Virus record (IMG/VR): IMGVR_UViG_2711768053_000018
Span: 1-19,782 of that record
Source of the DNA: a virus
Lineage: Duplodnaviria > Heunggongvirae > Uroviricota > Caudoviricetes
Reading direction: 5' to 3' (one strand)
DNA length: 19,782 nt
The notes under the pieces are model-generated. The model had not been told where the DNA came from and searched no databases. It saw only the letters and a program-made list of their open reading frames with translations. Shown here in pieces: positions 815 to 12,454 of the stretch. A program made the position numbers and the translations under genes. Every line of letters begins with the position of its first letter. The first letter of the stretch is position 1.

Positions 815-889
<75 letters not shown>

Positions 890-892
890 ATA

Positions 893-968
<76 letters not shown>

Positions 969-2156: not shown

Positions 2157-2755
2157 TACGCAAACTCCAGCAGCTGCGCGGCCACATTTTCGACTTGTTC
2201 CGGAGAGGAAAATTTACGGAACAGAATCCAGTTCCACAGCACATTCAGTACAGATTTATAAACCTGCTGAAACACGGTTTCGTCCATATTCGCAAACGCG
2301 ATAGATTTCGCCCGACGCCCACGGCTACCATCAGGATAAAGATGCTCGGTGTAAAATCCGGCCTGAATGGTTACCCACTCGCGGAAAGCCTCAAACGATT
2401 TTAGCAATGCCGTATCCCGGGTTCTGCGTGTCGCAACTGTATTTAGATATTGCTCTGCGGCATCACTCAGGGCTGGTGTGTGTTCCCGACCAACTGATTC
2501 GCACAGGTAATCCACGAAACCAGACAGCAGTTCTCGTTCGCGAGGCGTGATCGCCCCACCGACCGGAGTCCAGTAATCGAATCCCAGTTGCAGGAGTTTG
2601 AAAAAACGCTTGTGGAATGCGTAGTTACGCACACGCTTAAAGTCTGCGTGTATCCACTCACCTATTTTGATTTGATGCAGAAAATCGCAACTCTCCGGCG
2701 TCGCCGGGAGAAGTAAACCAGAAGAGGTTTGTTTGACCAGTTGTATATGCGCCAT
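2156..2755 (-). CDS. nin-region phage protein (DUF1367-like)
   Basis: 199-aa ORF translationally coupled to the downstream YbcO-like gene; family assignment from memory only. Confidence 0.5.
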   Translation of the reverse strand: MAHIQLVKQTSSGLLLPATPESCDFLHQIKIGEWIHADFKRVRNYAFHKRFFKLLQLGFDYWTPVGGAITPRERELLSGFVDYLCESVGREHTPALSDAAEQYLNTVATRRTRDTALLKSFEAFREWVTIQAGFYTEHLYPDGSRGRRAKSIAFANMDETVFQQVYKSVLNVLWNWILFRKFSSPEQVENVAAQLLEFA

Positions 2756-3028
2756 TTCTCAATCTCTCGATGGCGCAGTGCAGCAGATGCCAGTTGTTCA
2801 GGCTGACGTATAAAGTATAAATAAACTGATTCCAGTGTAAAGCCCCCACATTGATGGAATAAAAACCAAACAACAAATTGCTGGGATAAAAACAACGCTT
2901 ATTATTAAAAGCGGTTAAACAAATTAAATTTTAATGTTATGCAAATCTGCCAGATCACCATAATATCTCATTTGAAAACCGCTGAAATAACAACCCTATC
3001 AGGATTAATCATATTAAGGTGAGTAAAT

Positions 3029-3115
3029 ATGGAAAACAACAAATCTGCACATTACGTTCCTTTTTTATCTGTAATACTTTTTGTTTTATGCTGTGCGTGG
3101 GCATTATTTTTATAA
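3029..3115 (+). CDS. 28-aa hydrophobic small protein candidate (MENNKSAHYVPFLSVILFVLCCAWALFL)
   Basis: ATG at 3029 preceded by AAGGTGAG with 5-nt spacing; polar N-terminus then about 19 hydrophobic residues; followed by a hairpin at 3137-3152. Below the 60-aa track cutoff. Confidence 0.3.
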   Translation: MENNKSAHYVPFLSVILFVLCCAWALFL

Positions 3116-3135
3116 AAATATTCACAGATAAAATA

Positions 3136-3153
3136 TACCCGCCGAAGCGGGTT
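3136..3153. terminator. Bidirectional terminator candidate between the convergent small ORF and the ATPase/TOPRIM cassette
   Basis: Stem ACCCGC/GCGGGT with loop CGAA (3137-3152), T-rich on the plus side and A/T-rich on the minus side. A second hairpin GCCTGAT/ATCAGGC lies at 3175-3197. Confidence 0.35.
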
Positions 3154-3218
3154 TAGTGCGGGTGCGTTGAGGATGCCTGATAAAGCTTACATCAGGCCGA
3201 TTTCACTGATTTCAGACC

Positions 3219-3752
3219 TTATTCCACCAAGCGGAAATGCCTAGCAAAATTTGACTTCATATCCGCAACAGGCTTTAACGCATCGTGTAGCCCCCGGGAA
3301 AACCACAGATGCTCTCGAATCCCCAGCTTAATTAATTTACCCAGCGAATCATTACATGCTATAAAATCCCTTTTAAAATCATTAATTCCGGATGTTTTCC
3401 TTCCGCAAAAACAATAAATCAACTGAGGAATGGATTTATTGCAGCACCAGCTCAATTCTTCTTCAAAATTACTTGTTTGCTGAAACAAATATATCCGATG
3501 CCCTCTGGAACGTAAAAATTTCACGTTTTCTATAAATCTTGCCGATTGCTCAACCTGATCTGAATCAAACACAACAAATATATCACTACCCTTTGGTATT
3601 GCCATCGCATACCTATGTATCCGATCCTGCCAGAAATTCTTCTTAACAACATCCTTCACAGCAATAATCTTATCTCTCTTCATTTTTTTGAACAGAGATA
3701 ATTCTGTTTCACCTTCAACGAAAACGATTGTAACTGTTGCTCTTGCTGCCAT
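3219..3752 (-). CDS. Small TOPRIM-like (OLD-type) nuclease-domain protein, partner of the upstream ATPase
   Basis: 177 aa. N-terminal IVFVEGETE (conserved Glu of TOPRIM strand 1) and VVFDSD (DxD motif). Start ATG lies 1 nt after the ATPase stop (TAAaATG). AT-rich by eye. Confidence 0.6.
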   Translation of the reverse strand: MAARATVTIVFVEGETELSLFKKMKRDKIIAVKDVVKKNFWQDRIHRYAMAIPKGSDIFVVFDSDQVEQSARFIENVKFLRSRGHRIYLFQQTSNFEEELSWCCNKSIPQLIYCFCGRKTSGINDFKRDFIACNDSLGKLIKLGIREHLWFSRGLHDALKPVADMKSNFARHFRLVE

Positions 3753-3753
3753 T

Positions 3754-4950
3754 TTAAAGCAACTCCGAAACTAAAGACATATCAGGCATAACGCCAAAGA
3801 TATCCCGTGCAACTGCACTTCGTATACTCCTGTCGTTTTTTTTCAGGAGTGAGCCTGCTTCAATGAACTCAGTGCAATCATTATCCTTTTTGAGAAAAAT
3901 GAACGAATGAACAGGCAAGTCAAGCTCAAAAATATCCATATTATGTGTGGTGTAGAAAAACTGAGTGTTTTCCTTAAGCCTAGAAATAATCAGCGTAACG
4001 ATTATCCGCTCCAGTTCTGAATGAGAGTAGGCTAACTTCTCATCAAGGTAATAGGTCATTGACGGAATGTTGGAGCACACACCAAGTTCTTCACAATCAG
4101 AGATTATCGCACTGACAAAATGAGCTATTGTGACAGCATCGAAGGTGCCCCGTGACATACGATCTGAGTTCGTTATGTCGCCTTTACTTGTTACGATTGA
4201 ATAATCCTTGTTTTTAAACCTTATCAAATAAACCTTGGTGGGATTTTTGCCTTCCGACTCAGGTTCAGTCATCTCAACGACGCCAACAATACTTGAATCA
4301 AAAGTGCGAATTATTCTTTCAAGAATATCTTTATTCATTCTTGAAATTTCAGCTGTACTTTCTTGAATCCCTGACAACTGGTAATACCACCCCCCCGAAA
4401 AAATAACGCTCTTGAAGGGTTCGAGAGTAACAGTATTACCATCAGAATAACTCTCATGAAAATAATATTCAGCAGAGGTTGGAGCCCCCGCAGAAAATAG
4501 TTTGTTTAGCTTTTCTGTTGTTTTAAAACAGGAGTCATTTATGTTTATTTTCACATAACCATATTTCACTTCTTTAACAAAAAGTGCACCTGTTTCATTT
4601 GCAGCAAAGCGAACATACAACCTGTGATGCAAGAAGTTCTCTGTCGCAAAATCCACTTCAAAGGAGGCATCCTGATCCCTGTGGTTAAGTCGCAGACTGG
4701 AGCGCAGCTCTTTGGTTCTGATAAAAACCTGAATCCCACACAATATTCTGCCCAGAGAGGTTTTCCCGGAAGCGTTCCCTCCAGTAATGATACAGACTTT
4801 CTTATAATAAAATTTAGGTCTGCCCGCCAGATGCTCACCCTCAAGCGGTATATTCACCTGCTTCTTGGGGTATGAAAGATTCAGTTCTGCGTTGCAGAAT
4901 GCATACAGATTTACAAGTTTTATGCGCGTGAAAATCATTTTTTCTTCCAT
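3754..4950 (-). CDS. ABC-type (AAA_21-like) ATPase of a candidate defence module
   Basis: 398 aa. Walker A ITGGNASGKTSLGRIL, Walker B-like YYLDE, H-loop FFYTTHNMD. An alternative start at 4938 (MIFTRIK) has a better-spaced GGAAG. Upstream minus-strand promoter candidate TTGTTG-17-GATAAT (plus 5000-4995 / 4977-4972). AT-rich relative to neighbours by eye. Confidence 0.8.
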   Translation of the reverse strand: MEEKMIFTRIKLVNLYAFCNAELNLSYPKKQVNIPLEGEHLAGRPKFYYKKVCIITGGNASGKTSLGRILCGIQVFIRTKELRSSLRLNHRDQDASFEVDFATENFLHHRLYVRFAANETGALFVKEVKYGYVKININDSCFKTTEKLNKLFSAGAPTSAEYYFHESYSDGNTVTLEPFKSVIFSGGWYYQLSGIQESTAEISRMNKDILERIIRTFDSSIVGVVEMTEPESEGKNPTKVYLIRFKNKDYSIVTSKGDITNSDRMSRGTFDAVTIAHFVSAIISDCEELGVCSNIPSMTYYLDEKLAYSHSELERIIVTLIISRLKENTQFFYTTHNMDIFELDLPVHSFIFLKKDNDCTEFIEAGSLLKKNDRSIRSAVARDIFGVMPDMSLVSELL

Positions 4951-5043
4951 GTTTTGGAACTAATGTTGAGTATTATCCAGAAAATCAATAACGTCAACAA
5001 AATTTACCGGGGACTTACCCCCGATCCTGTTTGGCTCGGAAAT

Positions 5044-5127
5044 TTATCCCCAGCGGCAAATCGAATACACCACCAGCGCCACCGCCATCGCAATTCCTAC
5101 CGTGGTGAATGCCTCAGGCCAAGTCAT
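5044..5127 (-). CDS. 27-aa hydrophobic small ORF candidate (MTWPEAFTTVGIAMAVALVVYSICRWG)
   Basis: ATG overlaps the stop of the DUF551 gene (ATGA) and is preceded by GGAGGTGA at 5-nt spacing; followed by a hairpin at about 5006-5023. Confidence 0.3.
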   Translation of the reverse strand: MTWPEAFTTVGIAMAVALVVYSICRWG

Positions 5128-5615
5128 TGATTCACCTCCTGCGGTGGTTCCGGTAGCGGCATCCAGTGTGATGGTATCCACGACGCACTAGGTATTACCC
5201 ACCCATCATTAGCGTCAGGATGCCCCGGGATGTAAGTCGCCCATTTCATTCTCCAGTCACCTTTCCTGTCAAACTCCCTGGCAACAAGAACGGCTGTTTT
5301 GCTATCTGGCATTCGCTCACTACAGCTTATCCAACCATCTGGAGCTACCGTCGCTGGCGGGGCGGTGTAAAGTGGAACAACTCGCCCTCCCCATTGCTTA
5401 ACACTACTCTCAGCGAACACTAAATGCTCAGTCCGATAATACCCAGGGGCATCAATATCTTTTCTTTCACTATCCCACATGTAAACCACCGGTTCAGCTT
5501 CCAGCGAGGCTAACGCTATTTCATAAGCCCGGCGCTCAATATTGTCTCGCACGTCTAGGCTGCCTATGCGCTCTTTGATTTCTTTAATCAGTTCTTTGTC
5601 GGTGAAAGTTGTCAT
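5124..5615 (-). CDS. DUF551-like phage protein
   Basis: 163 aa with C-terminal WISCSERMPD...WMPLPEPP, recalled as typical of DUF551 proteins in lambdoid nin regions. Confidence 0.65.
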   Translation of the reverse strand: MTTFTDKELIKEIKERIGSLDVRDNIERRAYEIALASLEAEPVVYMWDSERKDIDAPGYYRTEHLVFAESSVKQWGGRVVPLYTAPPATVAPDGWISCSERMPDSKTAVLVAREFDRKGDWRMKWATYIPGHPDANDGWVIPSASWIPSHWMPLPEPPQEVNQ

Positions 5616-11112: not shown

Positions 11113-11535
11113 TTAATGAACAACAACAGAATCGCCGGACGAACCACCGCCGCTGAAATGCGCTTTCCGGTAAACGGCCTGGACTGCATCATCATGCGCA
11201 TCAATTGCCGTACTCAACGCTTCCTGCGCCGCCAGTAATGCACGGCGTTCCAGGGTATCGAAGATGCAGAGTCGGTGACGCAGCTCGCGCGGAAGGATTG
11301 CCAGAATTGCTGGGATCAGCTTCTGAATTTTTTCTCTTTGCGTTTTCGTTTCACCTTTCAACCAACGGTGATAGATATTCTGCTGATTGTTCCAGTCCTT
11401 GCCTGGAACCAGGGGCAATTCGCCGCCCCCCTGGCGCAGATATTCTTCAGTAATTGCATTGGCTACCCATGCCTGCCCTTTTTCGGCTGCCAGGGCAAAC
11501 AACACTGATTCGATGTGCTCATGCTTGATTTTCAT
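11113..11535 (-). CDS. ydaT: YdaT-like protein (Rac early-right operon)
   Basis: 140 aa, same length as K-12 YdaT from memory, and positioned directly after ydaS. Confidence 0.75.
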   Translation of the reverse strand: MKIKHEHIESVLFALAAEKGQAWVANAITEEYLRQGGGELPLVPGKDWNNQQNIYHRWLKGETKTQREKIQKLIPAILAILPRELRHRLCIFDTLERRALLAAQEALSTAIDAHDDAVQAVYRKAHFSGGGSSGDSVVVH

Positions 11536-11557
11536 GAATCATTTGCCTCTTGATGTT

Positions 11558-11854
11558 TCAGGTATGATCAAATGAGGATTTGTTACTGTCATTTAGTTGC
11601 TTCACTGACATATTCTGCGAACAACATGCCGAACGTCGTAAATATGACCAGTCAATATCAGGACGAAGCTCTTCGCACAGAACCTCACCTCTTGTTGCTC
11701 GTTCAATTGCTGGACATCTCTCGGCAGGCAATTGACGTACCCCTTTGATCCATTGATTTACGCTTGGAGGTGATACACCTAAAAGCCTAGCCATTGCTGA
11801 TTGCCCACCGACAACAGCACAAGCTTGCTTGAATGAATAGTTCTCTTTTTTCAT
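11558..11854 (-). CDS. ydaS: YdaS-like Cro-type HTH protein
   Basis: 98 aa with HTH segment QACAVVGGQSAMARLLGVSPPSVNQW; divergent from racR across the operator region; GGAG RBS. Confidence 0.8.
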   Translation of the reverse strand: MKKENYSFKQACAVVGGQSAMARLLGVSPPSVNQWIKGVRQLPAERCPAIERATRGEVLCEELRPDIDWSYLRRSACCSQNMSVKQLNDSNKSSFDHT

Positions 11855-11977: not shown

Positions 11978-12454
11978 ATGCTTAGTGGTAAAGACTTAGG
12001 CCGAGCGATAGAGCAGGCCATTAACAAAAAAATCGCATCGGGATCCGTCAAATCAAAGGCGGAGGTCGCACGCCACTTCAAAGTCCAACCACCATCAATT
12101 TATGACTGGATTAAGAAAGGCTCCATAAGTAAAGATAAACTTCCAGAATTATGGCGTTTCTTTTCTGATGTTGTTGGTCCAGAGCATTGGGGGCTTAACG
12201 AATACCCCATACCAACCCCCACCAATTCAGATACAAAAAGTGAACTTTTAGATATAAACAACCTTTATCAAGCAGCCTCTGATGAAATTAGAGCGATTGT
12301 AGCTTTCCTGTTATCTGGAAATGCTACAGAACCAGATTGGGTTGACCACGATGTTCGCGCCTACATAGCAGCGATGGAAATGAAAGTGGGTAAGTATCTG
12401 AAAGCTCTAGAATCTGAACGGAAAAGCCAGAACATCACAAAAACTGGAACTTAA
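11978..12454 (+). CDS. racR: Prophage repressor RacR-like
   Basis: 158 aa (same length as K-12 RacR from memory). N-terminal HTH-like segment, AGGAGA RBS, flanked by operator clusters on both sides. Confidence 0.8.
   Translation: MLSGKDLGRAIEQAINKKIASGSVKSKAEVARHFKVQPPSIYDWIKKGSISKDKLPELWRFFSDVVGPEHWGLNEYPIPTPTNSDTKSELLDINNLYQAASDEIRAIVAFLLSGNATEPDWVDHDVRAYIAAMEMKVGKYLKALESERKSQNITKTGT

What the first reader, a model, noticed from the sequence alone, without database searches (positions are those of the whole stretch)
3136..5043. Autonomous AT-rich cassette: ABC ATPase plus minimal TOPRIM protein, a candidate defence system
A 398-aa ABC ATPase (Walker A, Walker B-like YYLDE, TTHN H-loop) is translationally coupled to a 177-aa protein with TOPRIM hallmarks (VEGETE, FDSD). 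The pair is AT-rich by eye, with a terminator hairpin and promoter candidate upstream and a terminator downstream, inserted between conserved nin genes. ATPase plus TOPRIM is the shared logic of OLD, Gabija GajA, PARIS and AbiL. Both proteins are smaller than I recall for PARIS AriA/AriB, so this may be an undescribed variant.
Basis: partly seen in the sequence, partly recalled or inferred. Interest (0 to 1): 0.85.

Follow-up and report, generated by a model that had tools for sequence, protein, structure and literature searches.

The report
Prophage ATPase plus mini-TOPRIM nuclease cassette
A self-contained two-gene cassette in an E. coli Rac-like prophage encodes an ABC ATPase and a very small OLD-type TOPRIM nuclease; it is most likely an untested, compact relative of the AbiL/PARIS anti-phage systems rather than a wholly new kind of system.

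Summary
On the minus strand, a 394-aa ABC ATPase (398 aa from the first ATG) is followed one base later by a 177-aa protein. The unit is AT-rich (GC 0.40; flanks 0.49) and has hairpins at both ends.

It behaves as a discrete module. Window 3137-5127 is 99.0-99.6% identical in five other E. coli prophages whose flanks are diverged or unrelated. Sister prophages carry hok in the same slot.

The gene pair is conserved in 111 of 123 related loci from many phyla. These include the P2 tin/old hotspot, integrase-proximal prophage ends and a site beside a CBASS nuclease gene.

The ATPase best matches PADLOC AbiLi (8e-23), and its model resembles SMC, Rad50 and PtuA heads. The small protein carries the full OLD catalytic set in order: E13, E17, D63xD65, E97xE99 and K127. 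It only weakly matches AbiLii, RloB and OLD-TOPRIM profiles, and fold searches could not separate TOPRIM from other Rossmann-like folds.

It is not PARIS, Gabija or a fused OLD protein. Homologues were already listed, unnamed and with no test recorded, in the P2-hotspot table of Rousset et al. 2022.

Verdict: a probable defence module and a compact AbiL-like variant. Its function and mechanism are inferred, not shown.

The parts
3137..5127 (-). The whole mobile module: upstream junction, insulating hairpin, promoter-like site, two genes and terminator.
   Evidence: It is 99.0-99.6% identical over q3137-5127/5168 in five other E. coli prophages (L131, L132, L134, L135, L136). Their flanks are only 74-90% identical or unrelated. 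GC is 0.399 against 0.47 for the rest of the window.
5006..5025 (-). Upstream terminator-like hairpin that would insulate the cassette from early-operon read-through.
   Evidence: Scan result: 8-bp stem with 5 GC pairs, followed by AAATTTTGTT. It lies inside the cassette-specific segment 3181-5042.
4969..4997 (-). Candidate sigma-70 promoter (TTGACG, 17 nt, AATACT).
   Evidence: It matches 9 of 12 consensus positions. The number of such sites in the region is not above the shuffle expectation, so this is only a candidate.
3754..4938 (-). ABC-type (SMC/Rad50/PtuA-like) ATPase of 394 aa; the longest ORF reaches 4950 (398 aa).
   Evidence: Invariant across 101 homologues: Walker A N-x-x-GKT, S-x-GT signature, Walker B DE, H-loop H and a C-terminal DR. 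PADLOC AbiLi 8.2e-23. The AF2 model has pLDDT 89.3. Foldseek hits SMC head, PtuA and Rad50 at E about 1e-10.
3219..3752 (-). Minimal 177-aa OLD-type TOPRIM protein, the predicted nuclease effector.
   Evidence: Invariant across 68 homologues: E13, G14, E17, D63, D65, Q92, E97, E99, K127. The AF2 model has pLDDT 94.3, with a four-strand alpha/beta core and a helical tail. Weak but recurrent hits to AbiLii, ATPase-Toprim_I-B, OLD-like_TOPRIM and RloB. Residue order matches the BpOLD catalytic set.
3127..3152 (-). Downstream intrinsic terminator (ACCCGCTTCGGCGGGT followed by a T-run).
   Evidence: Found by the scan. The 44 bp at 3137-3180 are 100% identical to the sequence downstream of hok in sister prophages, so this is the shared right-hand junction.

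Best explanation
This is a prophage-borne, two-gene anti-phage (abortive-infection / toxin-antitoxin-like) module of the OLD superfamily. Its closest named relative is AbiL. The cassette is insulated by terminators and probably expressed from its own promoter in the lysogen. It makes an ABC ATPase and, by translational coupling, a 20-kDa TOPRIM nuclease. The ATPase dimerises through its ATP-sandwich head. Its poorly conserved middle region (about residues 100-200) is the candidate sensor. It holds or licenses the nuclease. When a competing phage infects, the ATPase state changes and the nuclease cuts nucleic acid by two-metal catalysis (E13/E17, D63xD65, E97xE99, K127). The target would be DNA, as for OLD and GajA, or tRNA/RNA, as for AriB and RNase M5. 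Cutting stops the infected cell from producing phage. What is shown here: the gene anatomy, the motifs, the strict pairing, the modular mobility and the hotspot locations. What is inferred: the defence function, physical complex formation, the trigger, the substrate and the direction of control (sequestration or activation).
For: Strict pairing: 111 of 123 loci with the ATPase have the small gene immediately downstream on the same strand, and most exceptions are truncated contigs. The two proteins co-diverge (r = 0.79 over 1939 locus pairs). The ATPase is an ABC head. Its best defence-HMM match is AbiLi (8e-23; 35/35 members, best 2e-30), followed by mad3, AriA and PtuA. In the small protein, invariant acidic residues and a lysine sit after beta1, after beta3, at the start of the helix following beta4 and in a later helix. 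This is the same order as BpOLD E400, E404, D455xD457, T506xE508 and K562, a layout shared with RNase M5 and DnaG but not with RecR or topoisomerases (PMC6755086). The only recurrent Pfam and PADLOC hits across the family are TOPRIM-clan models: AbiLii 57/68, ATPase-Toprim_I-B best 1.2e-7, OLD-like_TOPRIM 9/68, RloB 9/68. Location also supports defence. It is a discrete 2-kb module moving between lambdoid backbones. It replaces hok in sister prophages. Homologues occupy the P2 portal-gpA (tin/old) hotspot, integrase-proximal ends of an E. coli and an Acinetobacter prophage, and a site beside a Cap4 nuclease gene. Rousset et al. list the family among P2-hotspot cargo with 37 occurrences. By analogy, related AAA + TOPRIM_OLD/RloB-like pairs behave as toxin (TOPRIM) and antitoxin (AAA) in E. 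coli (PMC10440598), and PARIS uses ATPase sequestration of a TOPRIM tRNase (PMC11464382).
Confidence: 0.7

Rival explanations
1. It is a pure addiction (post-segregational killing) toxin-antitoxin module that stabilises the prophage. The TOPRIM protein is the toxin and the ATPase is the antitoxin, and there is no dedicated phage-sensing role.
For: It occupies exactly the slot that holds the type I TA gene hok in sister prophages. Related AAA + TOPRIM_OLD pairs score as toxin-antitoxin pairs in neutralisation assays (PMC10440598). One related AAA-neutralised pair in that study, whose toxin is RNase-like rather than TOPRIM, gave no hits in a phage screen.
Against: TA behaviour and defence are not exclusive, since PARIS shows both. 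An energy-consuming ABC ATPase with a hypervariable insert is more than simple neutralisation needs. The family recurs in hotspots whose characterised cargo is anti-phage, such as P2 tin/old.
Confidence: 0.12
2. It is a phage DNA-metabolism pair working for the prophage itself. One form would be a RecF/RecR-like recombination mediator (ABC ATPase plus TOPRIM protein). Another would be a replication or repair accessory of the nin region.
For: RecF is an ABC/SMC-like ATPase and RecR carries a TOPRIM domain. The ATPase gives faint recF/SMC_N matches (E 0.05 and 0.0075). The nin region of lambdoid phages encodes recombination functions, and RecE/RecT lie in this prophage.
Against: The module is foreign in composition, insulated by terminators and swapped between unrelated backbones. 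It also sits at integrase ends and in the P2 old/tin slot, which are not replication contexts. Its best matches are defence ATPases: AbiLi, mad3, AriA and PtuA. The E, E+4, DxD, ExE, K layout is the OLD/RNase M5/DnaG type that the literature distinguishes from RecR. No helix-hairpin-helix or zinc-finger element of RecR is seen.
Confidence: 0.05
3. The small protein is not a TOPRIM enzyme. It is a different Rossmann-like or flavodoxin-like adaptor (for example CheY- or SIS-like) that merely shares acidic loops, and the pair has some other ATP-driven function.
For: Fold searches place CpaE/CheY-like, SIS and designed Rossmann proteins above TOPRIM structures. No PDB sequence match was found.
Against: Nine invariant residues, including six acidic ones and a lysine, fall in the order and secondary-structure positions of the OLD active site. 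The only recurrent profile hits are TOPRIM-clan families. One family member carries a precomputed OLD-like_TOPRIM Pfam hit and an NCBI TOPRIM name (P0172). The obligate partner is an OLD/AbiL-type ATPase.
Confidence: 0.08

Closest known systems
AbiL (AbiLi + AbiLii) of Lactococcus and the broader AAA_21 + RloB two-gene class
   Same: The operon has two genes, ATPase first and TOPRIM/OLD-like partner second. The ATPase's best defence-HMM match is AbiLi (8e-23; all 35 family members tested). AbiLii is the commonest defence-HMM hit of the partner family (57/68). The review PMC13064643 describes AbiL as an ABC ATPase plus a TOPRIM/OLD nuclease of unknown mechanism.
   Different: The partner matches AbiLii only marginally (8e-4, 24 profile positions) and scores below the Pfam RloB cut-off. 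Both proteins are compact (394 and 177 aa). The ATPase match covers only profile positions 47-288 of 326. The carrier is a Gram-negative prophage rather than a lactococcal plasmid. No phenotype is known. A direct comparison with the lactococcal proteins was not possible because their sequences could not be obtained.
PARIS (AriA + AriB)
   Same: The ABC ATPase and TOPRIM effector are split into two genes, and the system is carried by phages and satellites in hotspots. It is the best mechanistic template: AriA holds AriB inactive, a phage protein triggers release, and AriB cleaves tRNA-Lys (PMC11464382).
   Different: No DUF4435 hit was found in the window protein or in any of 68 relatives. AAA_15 (21.2 bits) and AAA_21 (23 bits) fall below the PARIS detection thresholds of 32 and 27. 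The proteins are about 45 and 20 kDa against 53-55 and 35 kDa. The ATPase model shows no long coiled-coil insert.
OLD-family nucleases, class 1 (P2 Old, TsOLD) and class 2 (GajA, BpOLD)
   Same: The two-domain logic is the same. The catalytic residue set and its order are the same: E, E+4, DxD, ExE and a helical-domain Lys. Homologues of the cassette sit in the very P2 locus that holds old and tin.
   Different: Here the ATPase and TOPRIM are separate polypeptides. There is no GajB helicase partner. The TOPRIM plus helical region is about 170 aa with much shorter spacers. Sequence similarity to P2 Old is negligible.
Septu and retron PtuA ATPases
   Same: PtuA heads are among the best structural matches of the ATPase model (E about 2e-10, TM 0.39-0.48).
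   Different: Their partner is an HNH nuclease (PtuB), not a TOPRIM protein. The PADLOC PtuA hits are weak.
Unnamed P2-hotspot candidate 'AAA_15/AAA_21/SMC_N | RloB' (Rousset et al. 2022, supplementary table, row 90)
   Same: It belongs to the same protein family: 39% identity over the whole ATPase (E 3e-96) and 41% identity for the small protein (E 3e-39). The architecture is the same.
   Different: It is a different sub-lineage carried by a P2-like phage rather than a lambdoid one. The table entry has no name, and no test of it is recorded in that row or in the passages read.

Membership tests
ABC ATPase (SMC/Rad50/OLD-type head) | Walker A, ABC signature, Walker B with catalytic Glu, and H-loop, in that order. 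| tested here: met
   GGNASGKT (K63), MSRGT (S266, G268, T269), YYLDE (D303, E304) and TTHN (H336) are invariant in 35 and 101 homologues.
ABC ATPase (SMC/Rad50/OLD-type head) | The fold resembles solved ABC heads. | tested here: met
   The AF2 model has pLDDT 89.3. Foldseek finds SMC head 4i99 at 1.3e-10, plus PtuA, Rad50 and retron ATPases.
TOPRIM domain (OLD/RNase M5/DnaG subgroup) | A conserved Glu after strand 1 and DxD after strand 3 of a four-strand alpha/beta core, plus E+4, a C-terminal acidic residue and a Lys. | tested here: met
   E13, E17, D63, D65, E97, E99 and K127 are invariant in 68 sequences. They lie after b1 (8-12), after b3 (57-63), at the start of helix 96-104 and in helix 123-132. 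The order matches BpOLD. This is a motif-level match only, with no superposition.
TOPRIM domain (OLD/RNase M5/DnaG subgroup) | Fold search retrieves TOPRIM structures specifically. | tested here: inconclusive
TOPRIM domain (OLD/RNase M5/DnaG subgroup) | A profile match to curated TOPRIM-clan families. | tested here: inconclusive
   The window protein scores 16.7 bits on RloB, below the cut-off of 31.5. Across the family the hits are OLD-like_TOPRIM 9/68, RloB 9/68, DUF3226 3/68 and DUF4276 1/68, all weak. P0172 has a precomputed PF20469 hit.
AbiL | A two-gene operon with the ATPase gene followed by the TOPRIM-like gene. | tested here: met
   Shown. The arrangement is conserved in 111 of 123 loci.
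AbiL | An AbiLi-type ATPase by HMM. | tested here: met
   PADLOC PDLC02335 gives 8.2e-23 and 79 bits over profile positions 47-288 of 326. It hits 35/35 relatives, best 2.1e-30.
AbiL | An AbiLii-type partner by HMM. | tested here: inconclusive
   PADLOC PDLC02337 gives 7.9e-4 and 18 bits, with the best stretch covering only profile positions 30-53 of 170. It hits 57/68 relatives, best 2.8e-6.
AbiL | Confers abortive infection against phages. | not testable with these tools
   This needs plaque and infection-dynamics assays.
PARIS | AriB contains DUF4435 (PF14491). | tested here: not met
   No DUF4435 hit at E <= 1 for the window protein, nor at E <= 0.01 in any of 68 relatives.
PARIS | AriA passes the AAA_15 (32 bits) or AAA_21 (27 bits) threshold used to define PARIS. 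| tested here: not met
   AAA_15 scores 21.2 bits and AAA_21 scores 23 bits. The thresholds are taken from PMC9122126.
OLD class 1 / Gabija GajA (class 2) | ATPase and TOPRIM are fused in one polypeptide; for Gabija there is also an adjacent UvrD-like GajB. | tested here: not met
   There are two separate ORFs. The neighbouring genes are DUF551 and DUF1367, with no helicase. The best 150 relatives of the small protein are 114-195 aa long, so none is a fusion.
MADS (mad1-8) | A multi-gene mad cluster lies around the mad3-like ATPase. | tested here: not met
   mad3 gives 6.4e-10 on the ATPase only. The small protein has no mad hit, and the window flanks hold no other mad genes.

The most novel reading that the evidence does not exclude
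The pair may represent a distinct, fifth arrangement of OLD-family immunity. In this reading the smallest known self-contained OLD-type nuclease (about 170 aa, complete two-metal-plus-lysine site) is controlled in trans by a compact ABC ATPase without a coiled coil. The ATPase's hypervariable 100-residue insert would sense a trigger different from those of PARIS (anti-restriction proteins) or P2 Old (RecBCD inhibition). The target and assembly state would differ from the AriA6:AriB3 complex. The family is large, with at least 815 clusters at 50% identity across Proteobacteria, Clostridia, Fusobacteria, Spirochaetes and others, and it is carried by lambdoid, P2-like and Acinetobacter prophages.
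Probability: 0.3. Interest if true: 0.65.

Novelty: new variant of a known kind. Interest (0 to 1): 0.45.

Why it matters
Many bacterial immune systems combine an ABC ATPase with a TOPRIM nuclease: Old, Gabija, retron Eco8, PARIS and AbiL. Only PARIS has a worked-out chain from sensing to effector, and the mechanism of AbiL is still unknown.

This family is a compact version of that logic, at 394 + 177 aa. It is widespread and phage-borne, and every predicted catalytic residue can be identified. That makes it a tractable model for three questions:
- How does an ABC ATPase gate a TOPRIM nuclease?
- What is the minimal OLD-type nuclease?
- What do lambdoid prophages exchange at the hok slot of the nin region?

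If it protects against phages, annotation tools would gain a family they currently miss or only half-detect. Its carriage in prophages of gut E. coli strains would also bear on phage therapy and on competition between prophages.

Tried and rejected
- **PDB sequence searches.** Profiles of both proteins found nothing useful.
- **afdb50.** This library was unavailable.
- **hhalign against P2 Old.** Both family profiles gave only short, low-probability alignments: 5% on VEGETE/LVEGKTE and 16% on the signature-to-H-loop segment. A single-sequence template is too weak for this test.
- **Nucleotide search of the phage collection.** No match was found. The protein search found two phages at about 33% identity.
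- **Plasmid search.** There was one distant Acinetobacter hit, so this is not a plasmid-borne family in that collection.
- **NCBIfam.** Nothing meaningful came up.
- **Rfam on 2500-5400.** No RNA family was found, hence no sok-like RNA.
- **Neighbourhood census.** The four nearest ORFs in 38 diverse loci showed no conserved third gene and only scattered defence genes, so guilt by association is modest outside the prophage hotspots.
- **NetFlax pairs.** I could not test whether the validated Clostridium algidicarnis or Streptococcus agalactiae pairs belong to this family, because only accession numbers were available.
- **Lactococcal AbiL.** I could not obtain the protein sequences for a direct comparison.
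- **Families considered and rejected.** PARIS, Gabija, fused OLD, MADS and Septu each fail a defining feature.
- **Apparent loss of the ATPase gene.** L132 and L136 seemed to lack the ATPase gene, but this was a gap in the gene calls. The ORF is intact in both.
Full report
**1. What is in the sequence**

The finding's coordinates hold two minus-strand ORFs. One is 3754-4950 (398 aa) and the other is 3219-3752 (177 aa). They are separated by TAA-A-ATG, and a GGAG lies upstream of the second start.

The ATPase has GGNASGKTS, MSRGT, TYYLDE and YTTHN. The small protein has FVEGETE and VFDSD.

All homologues begin at the fifth codon (MIFTR...). The NCBI and collection gene calls give 394 aa. The real ATPase gene is therefore probably 3754-4938.

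GC content is 0.399 for the cassette and 0.38 for the small gene. The flanks are 0.488 and 0.486, and the rest of the window is 0.471. Together with the 380-bp spacer at 2756-3136 (GC 0.325), this is the lowest-GC part of the window.

Terminator-like hairpins bracket the genes at 5025-5006 and 3152-3137. Six such sites occur in the region against 2.2 expected. A TTGACG-17-AATACT promoter-like site lies at 4997-4969, but such sites are not enriched over shuffles.

**2. Genomic setting**

The window is a Rac-like lambdoid prophage. Its annotated genes are:
- integrase, RecE and RecT
- YdaS/Cro-like and YdaT
- DnaT-like and lambda-P-like replication genes
- DUF1627, DUF977 and DUF551
- the cassette
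- DUF1367 (YbcN-like), YbcO and a DUF1133 Q-like gene
- tRNA-Gly and tRNA-Thr

The cassette points the same way as the early-right operon but is insulated from it.

**3. It is a discrete mobile module**

Only 1 of 5426 complete E. coli genomes carries the cassette (99.7% identity, annotated as 'ATP-binding protein' plus 'hypothetical protein'). Another 82 genomes match only a 44-bp piece, window 3137-3180.

In those sister prophages the 44 bp lie just downstream of a Hok/Gef gene. That gene sits in the same slot, between DUF551 and DUF1367.

blastn shows that window 3181-5042 (1862 bp) replaces a 581-bp hok segment. The replacement lies between the shared terminator and a shared 128-bp upstream stretch of 74% identity.

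Window 3137-5127 is also 99.0-99.6% identical in five other E. coli prophages. Their flanks are only 74-90% identical, or are different modules such as DUF968-RusA-Antiterm.

**4. The pair is an obligate, widespread unit**

The ATPase has about 200 detected relatives, and the small protein has 326 after a profile search. An exhaustive profile search found 815 clusters at 50% identity for the small protein (558 at E <= 1e-10). The best 150 are all 114-195 aa long, so none is a fusion.

Scans recovered 37 viral and 80 genomic loci. They come from Gamma- and Betaproteobacteria, Lachnospiraceae and other Clostridia, Fusobacteria, Spirochaetes, Verrucomicrobia, Campylobacteraceae and Acholeplasmatales.

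In 111 of 123 loci with the ATPase, the small gene follows immediately on the same strand. Most exceptions are truncated contigs. Divergence of the two proteins is correlated (r = 0.79), as expected for partners that evolve together.

No third gene is conserved. The nearest neighbours are heterogeneous, with a scattering of defence genes (mad2/3/8, GajA/Old, BrxH, DpdF, PsyrT) and P2 packaging genes.

**5. Where homologues sit**
- A 45%-identical pair in Klebsiella lies between the portal gene and gpA of P2-like prophages. This is the locus that holds tin and old in P2 itself.
- A 55%-identical E. coli pair lies between host genes and the integrase of a lambdoid prophage.
- The pair in Acinetobacter phage Ab105-3phi is also next to the integrase.
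- A Psychrobacter pair lies near a Cap4-nuclease gene beside a cI-like repressor.

Rousset et al. 2022 list 'AAA_15/AAA_21/SMC_N | RloB' among P2-hotspot cargo, with 37 occurrences. The sequences given there are 39% and 41% identical to the window proteins (E 3e-96 and 3e-39). That entry carries no name, and no test of it is recorded in that row or in the passages read.

**6. The ATPase**

Pfam gives only sub-threshold AAA_21, AAA_15 and SMC_N matches. The PADLOC AbiLi model matches at 8.2e-23 and hits all 35 relatives (best 2e-30). Next come mad3, AriA, PDC-M12A and PtuA.

Walker A, signature, Walker B and H-loop residues are invariant in 101 sequences. So is a C-terminal K-N-D-R motif.

The AlphaFold model (pLDDT 89.3, pTM 0.89) matches SMC heads, Septu and retron PtuA, and Rad50, at E about 1e-10 and TM 0.39-0.48. 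The region between lobe I and the signature helix is a compact alpha/beta insert rather than a long coiled coil.

Residues about 100-200, 221-240 and 281-300 are the least conserved. The nucleotide-binding elements and the C-terminus are the most conserved. I take the variable insert as the candidate sensor surface. This is an inference.

**7. The small protein**

The model is confident (pLDDT 94.3). It shows b1 8-12, a helix, b2 34-37, b3 57-63, a helix, b4 86-92, then six helices.

Nine residues are invariant in 68 diverse sequences: E13, G14, E17, D63, D65, Q92, E97, E99 and K127. They fall after b1, after b3, at the start of the helix following b4, and in a later helix.

This is the order of the Burkholderia OLD active site: E400, E404, D455xD457, T506xE508 and K562. 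The authors show that this layout is shared with RNase M5 and DnaG and is distinct from RecR and topoisomerases (PMC6755086).

Profile evidence points the same way but is weak:
- For the window protein, RloB scores 16.7 bits (cut-off 31.5) and AbiLii gives 7.9e-4.
- Across the family, AbiLii hits 57/68, ATPase-Toprim_I-B reaches 1.2e-7, OLD-like_TOPRIM hits 9/68, RloB 9/68 and DUF3226 3/68. No competing family recurs.
- Sources name individual members 'RloB domain-containing', 'DUF4276' and 'TOPRIM nucleotidyl transferase/hydrolase'.

I therefore regard TOPRIM as well supported by motifs and profiles but not proven by structure comparison.

**8. Mechanism**

The most likely reading is an OLD-superfamily immune module. 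An ATP-driven ABC dimer senses infection and controls a two-metal TOPRIM nuclease, and nuclease activity aborts the infection.

PARIS provides the worked example. AriA sequesters AriB, Ocr triggers release, and AriB dimers cleave tRNA-Lys (PMC11464382). RloB-like TOPRIM proteins paired with AAA ATPases have been shown to act as toxins neutralised by the ATPase (PMC10440598).

Four things remain unknown for this family:
- whether the ATPase restrains or activates the nuclease
- whether the substrate is DNA or RNA
- what the trigger is
- whether a stable complex forms

Replacement of hok at the same locus fits a toxic, conditionally lethal cargo. It also keeps a pure addiction role alive as a rival.

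**9. Comparison and membership**
- It works like AbiL, PARIS and OLD.
- It is not PARIS: there is no DUF4435, the ATPase scores are below the PARIS thresholds, the proteins are smaller, and no coiled coil is predicted.
- It is not a fused OLD or Gabija protein: there are two polypeptides and no helicase.
- It is not MADS or Septu.
- It meets the AbiL architecture and the AbiLi HMM test. The AbiLii test is only marginal and the phenotype is untested.
- I could not compare it directly with the lactococcal proteins.

I file it as an AbiL-like compact variant rather than a confirmed AbiL member.

**10. Novelty and score**

A specialist would expect an ATPase plus TOPRIM pair in a prophage hotspot to be a defence system. 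The family is already visible in a published supplementary table. The surprise is therefore limited.

The value lies elsewhere. The family is large and phage-borne, has no reported test in the literature searched here, and is only half-recognised by current models. It has an unusually small and complete nuclease, and the module has cleanly defined boundaries ready to clone.

Interest is 0.45. Novelty is 'new variant of a known kind'.

Noticed in passing
window 815-889 and 893-968 (minus strand): tRNA-Gly(UCC) and tRNA-Thr(UGU) genes lie downstream of the Q-like gene, about 2 kb from the cassette. Prophage tRNAs are common at this position. Because PARIS-type TOPRIM effectors cleave tRNAs and phage tRNAs can neutralise them, a link to the cassette's target would be worth testing.
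   Followed up: no
window 2756-3136: This is a 380-bp non-coding-looking spacer with the lowest GC of the window (0.325), between the cassette terminator and DUF1367. It holds promoter-like and terminator-like sites. At the equivalent place, the closest genome has a pseudogene fragment annotated, and one sister prophage (L131) has a 57-aa 'Rem' (PF27490) ORF. No Rfam family matched the part scanned.
   Followed up: partly
L129 5045-5625 and L130 5045-5625 (sister prophages of O157:H7 7.1_Anguil and ML35); equivalent to window 3181-5042: The same slot between DUF551 and DUF1367 carries a Hok/Gef toxin gene instead of the ATPase-TOPRIM cassette. The nin-region slot is therefore an exchange point for toxic or conditionally lethal cargo.
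   Followed up: yes
L001 1-1122 (E. coli 401651 prophage, beyond the window's left end): The one complete genome that carries the cassette annotates an 'anti-CBASS protein Acb1 family protein' next to the terminase genes of the same prophage. That would make one phage carry both a counter-defence gene and a candidate defence cassette.
   Followed up: no
window 11113-11854 (minus strand): YdaS (Cro-like HTH) and YdaT 'toxin' family genes occupy the immunity region, as in Rac. A 158-aa divergent ORF at 11978-12454 has no Pfam match. It stands where L001 annotates a helix-turn-helix protein (repressor position).
   Followed up: no
L002 1672-4523 (Psychrobacter prophage): A Cap4_nuclease-domain gene and a 570-aa gene with no Pfam hit lie about 1.5 kb upstream of the homologous pair, with two unannotated genes on the opposite strand in between. 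This looks like a small defence cluster next to the cI-like repressor.
   Followed up: no
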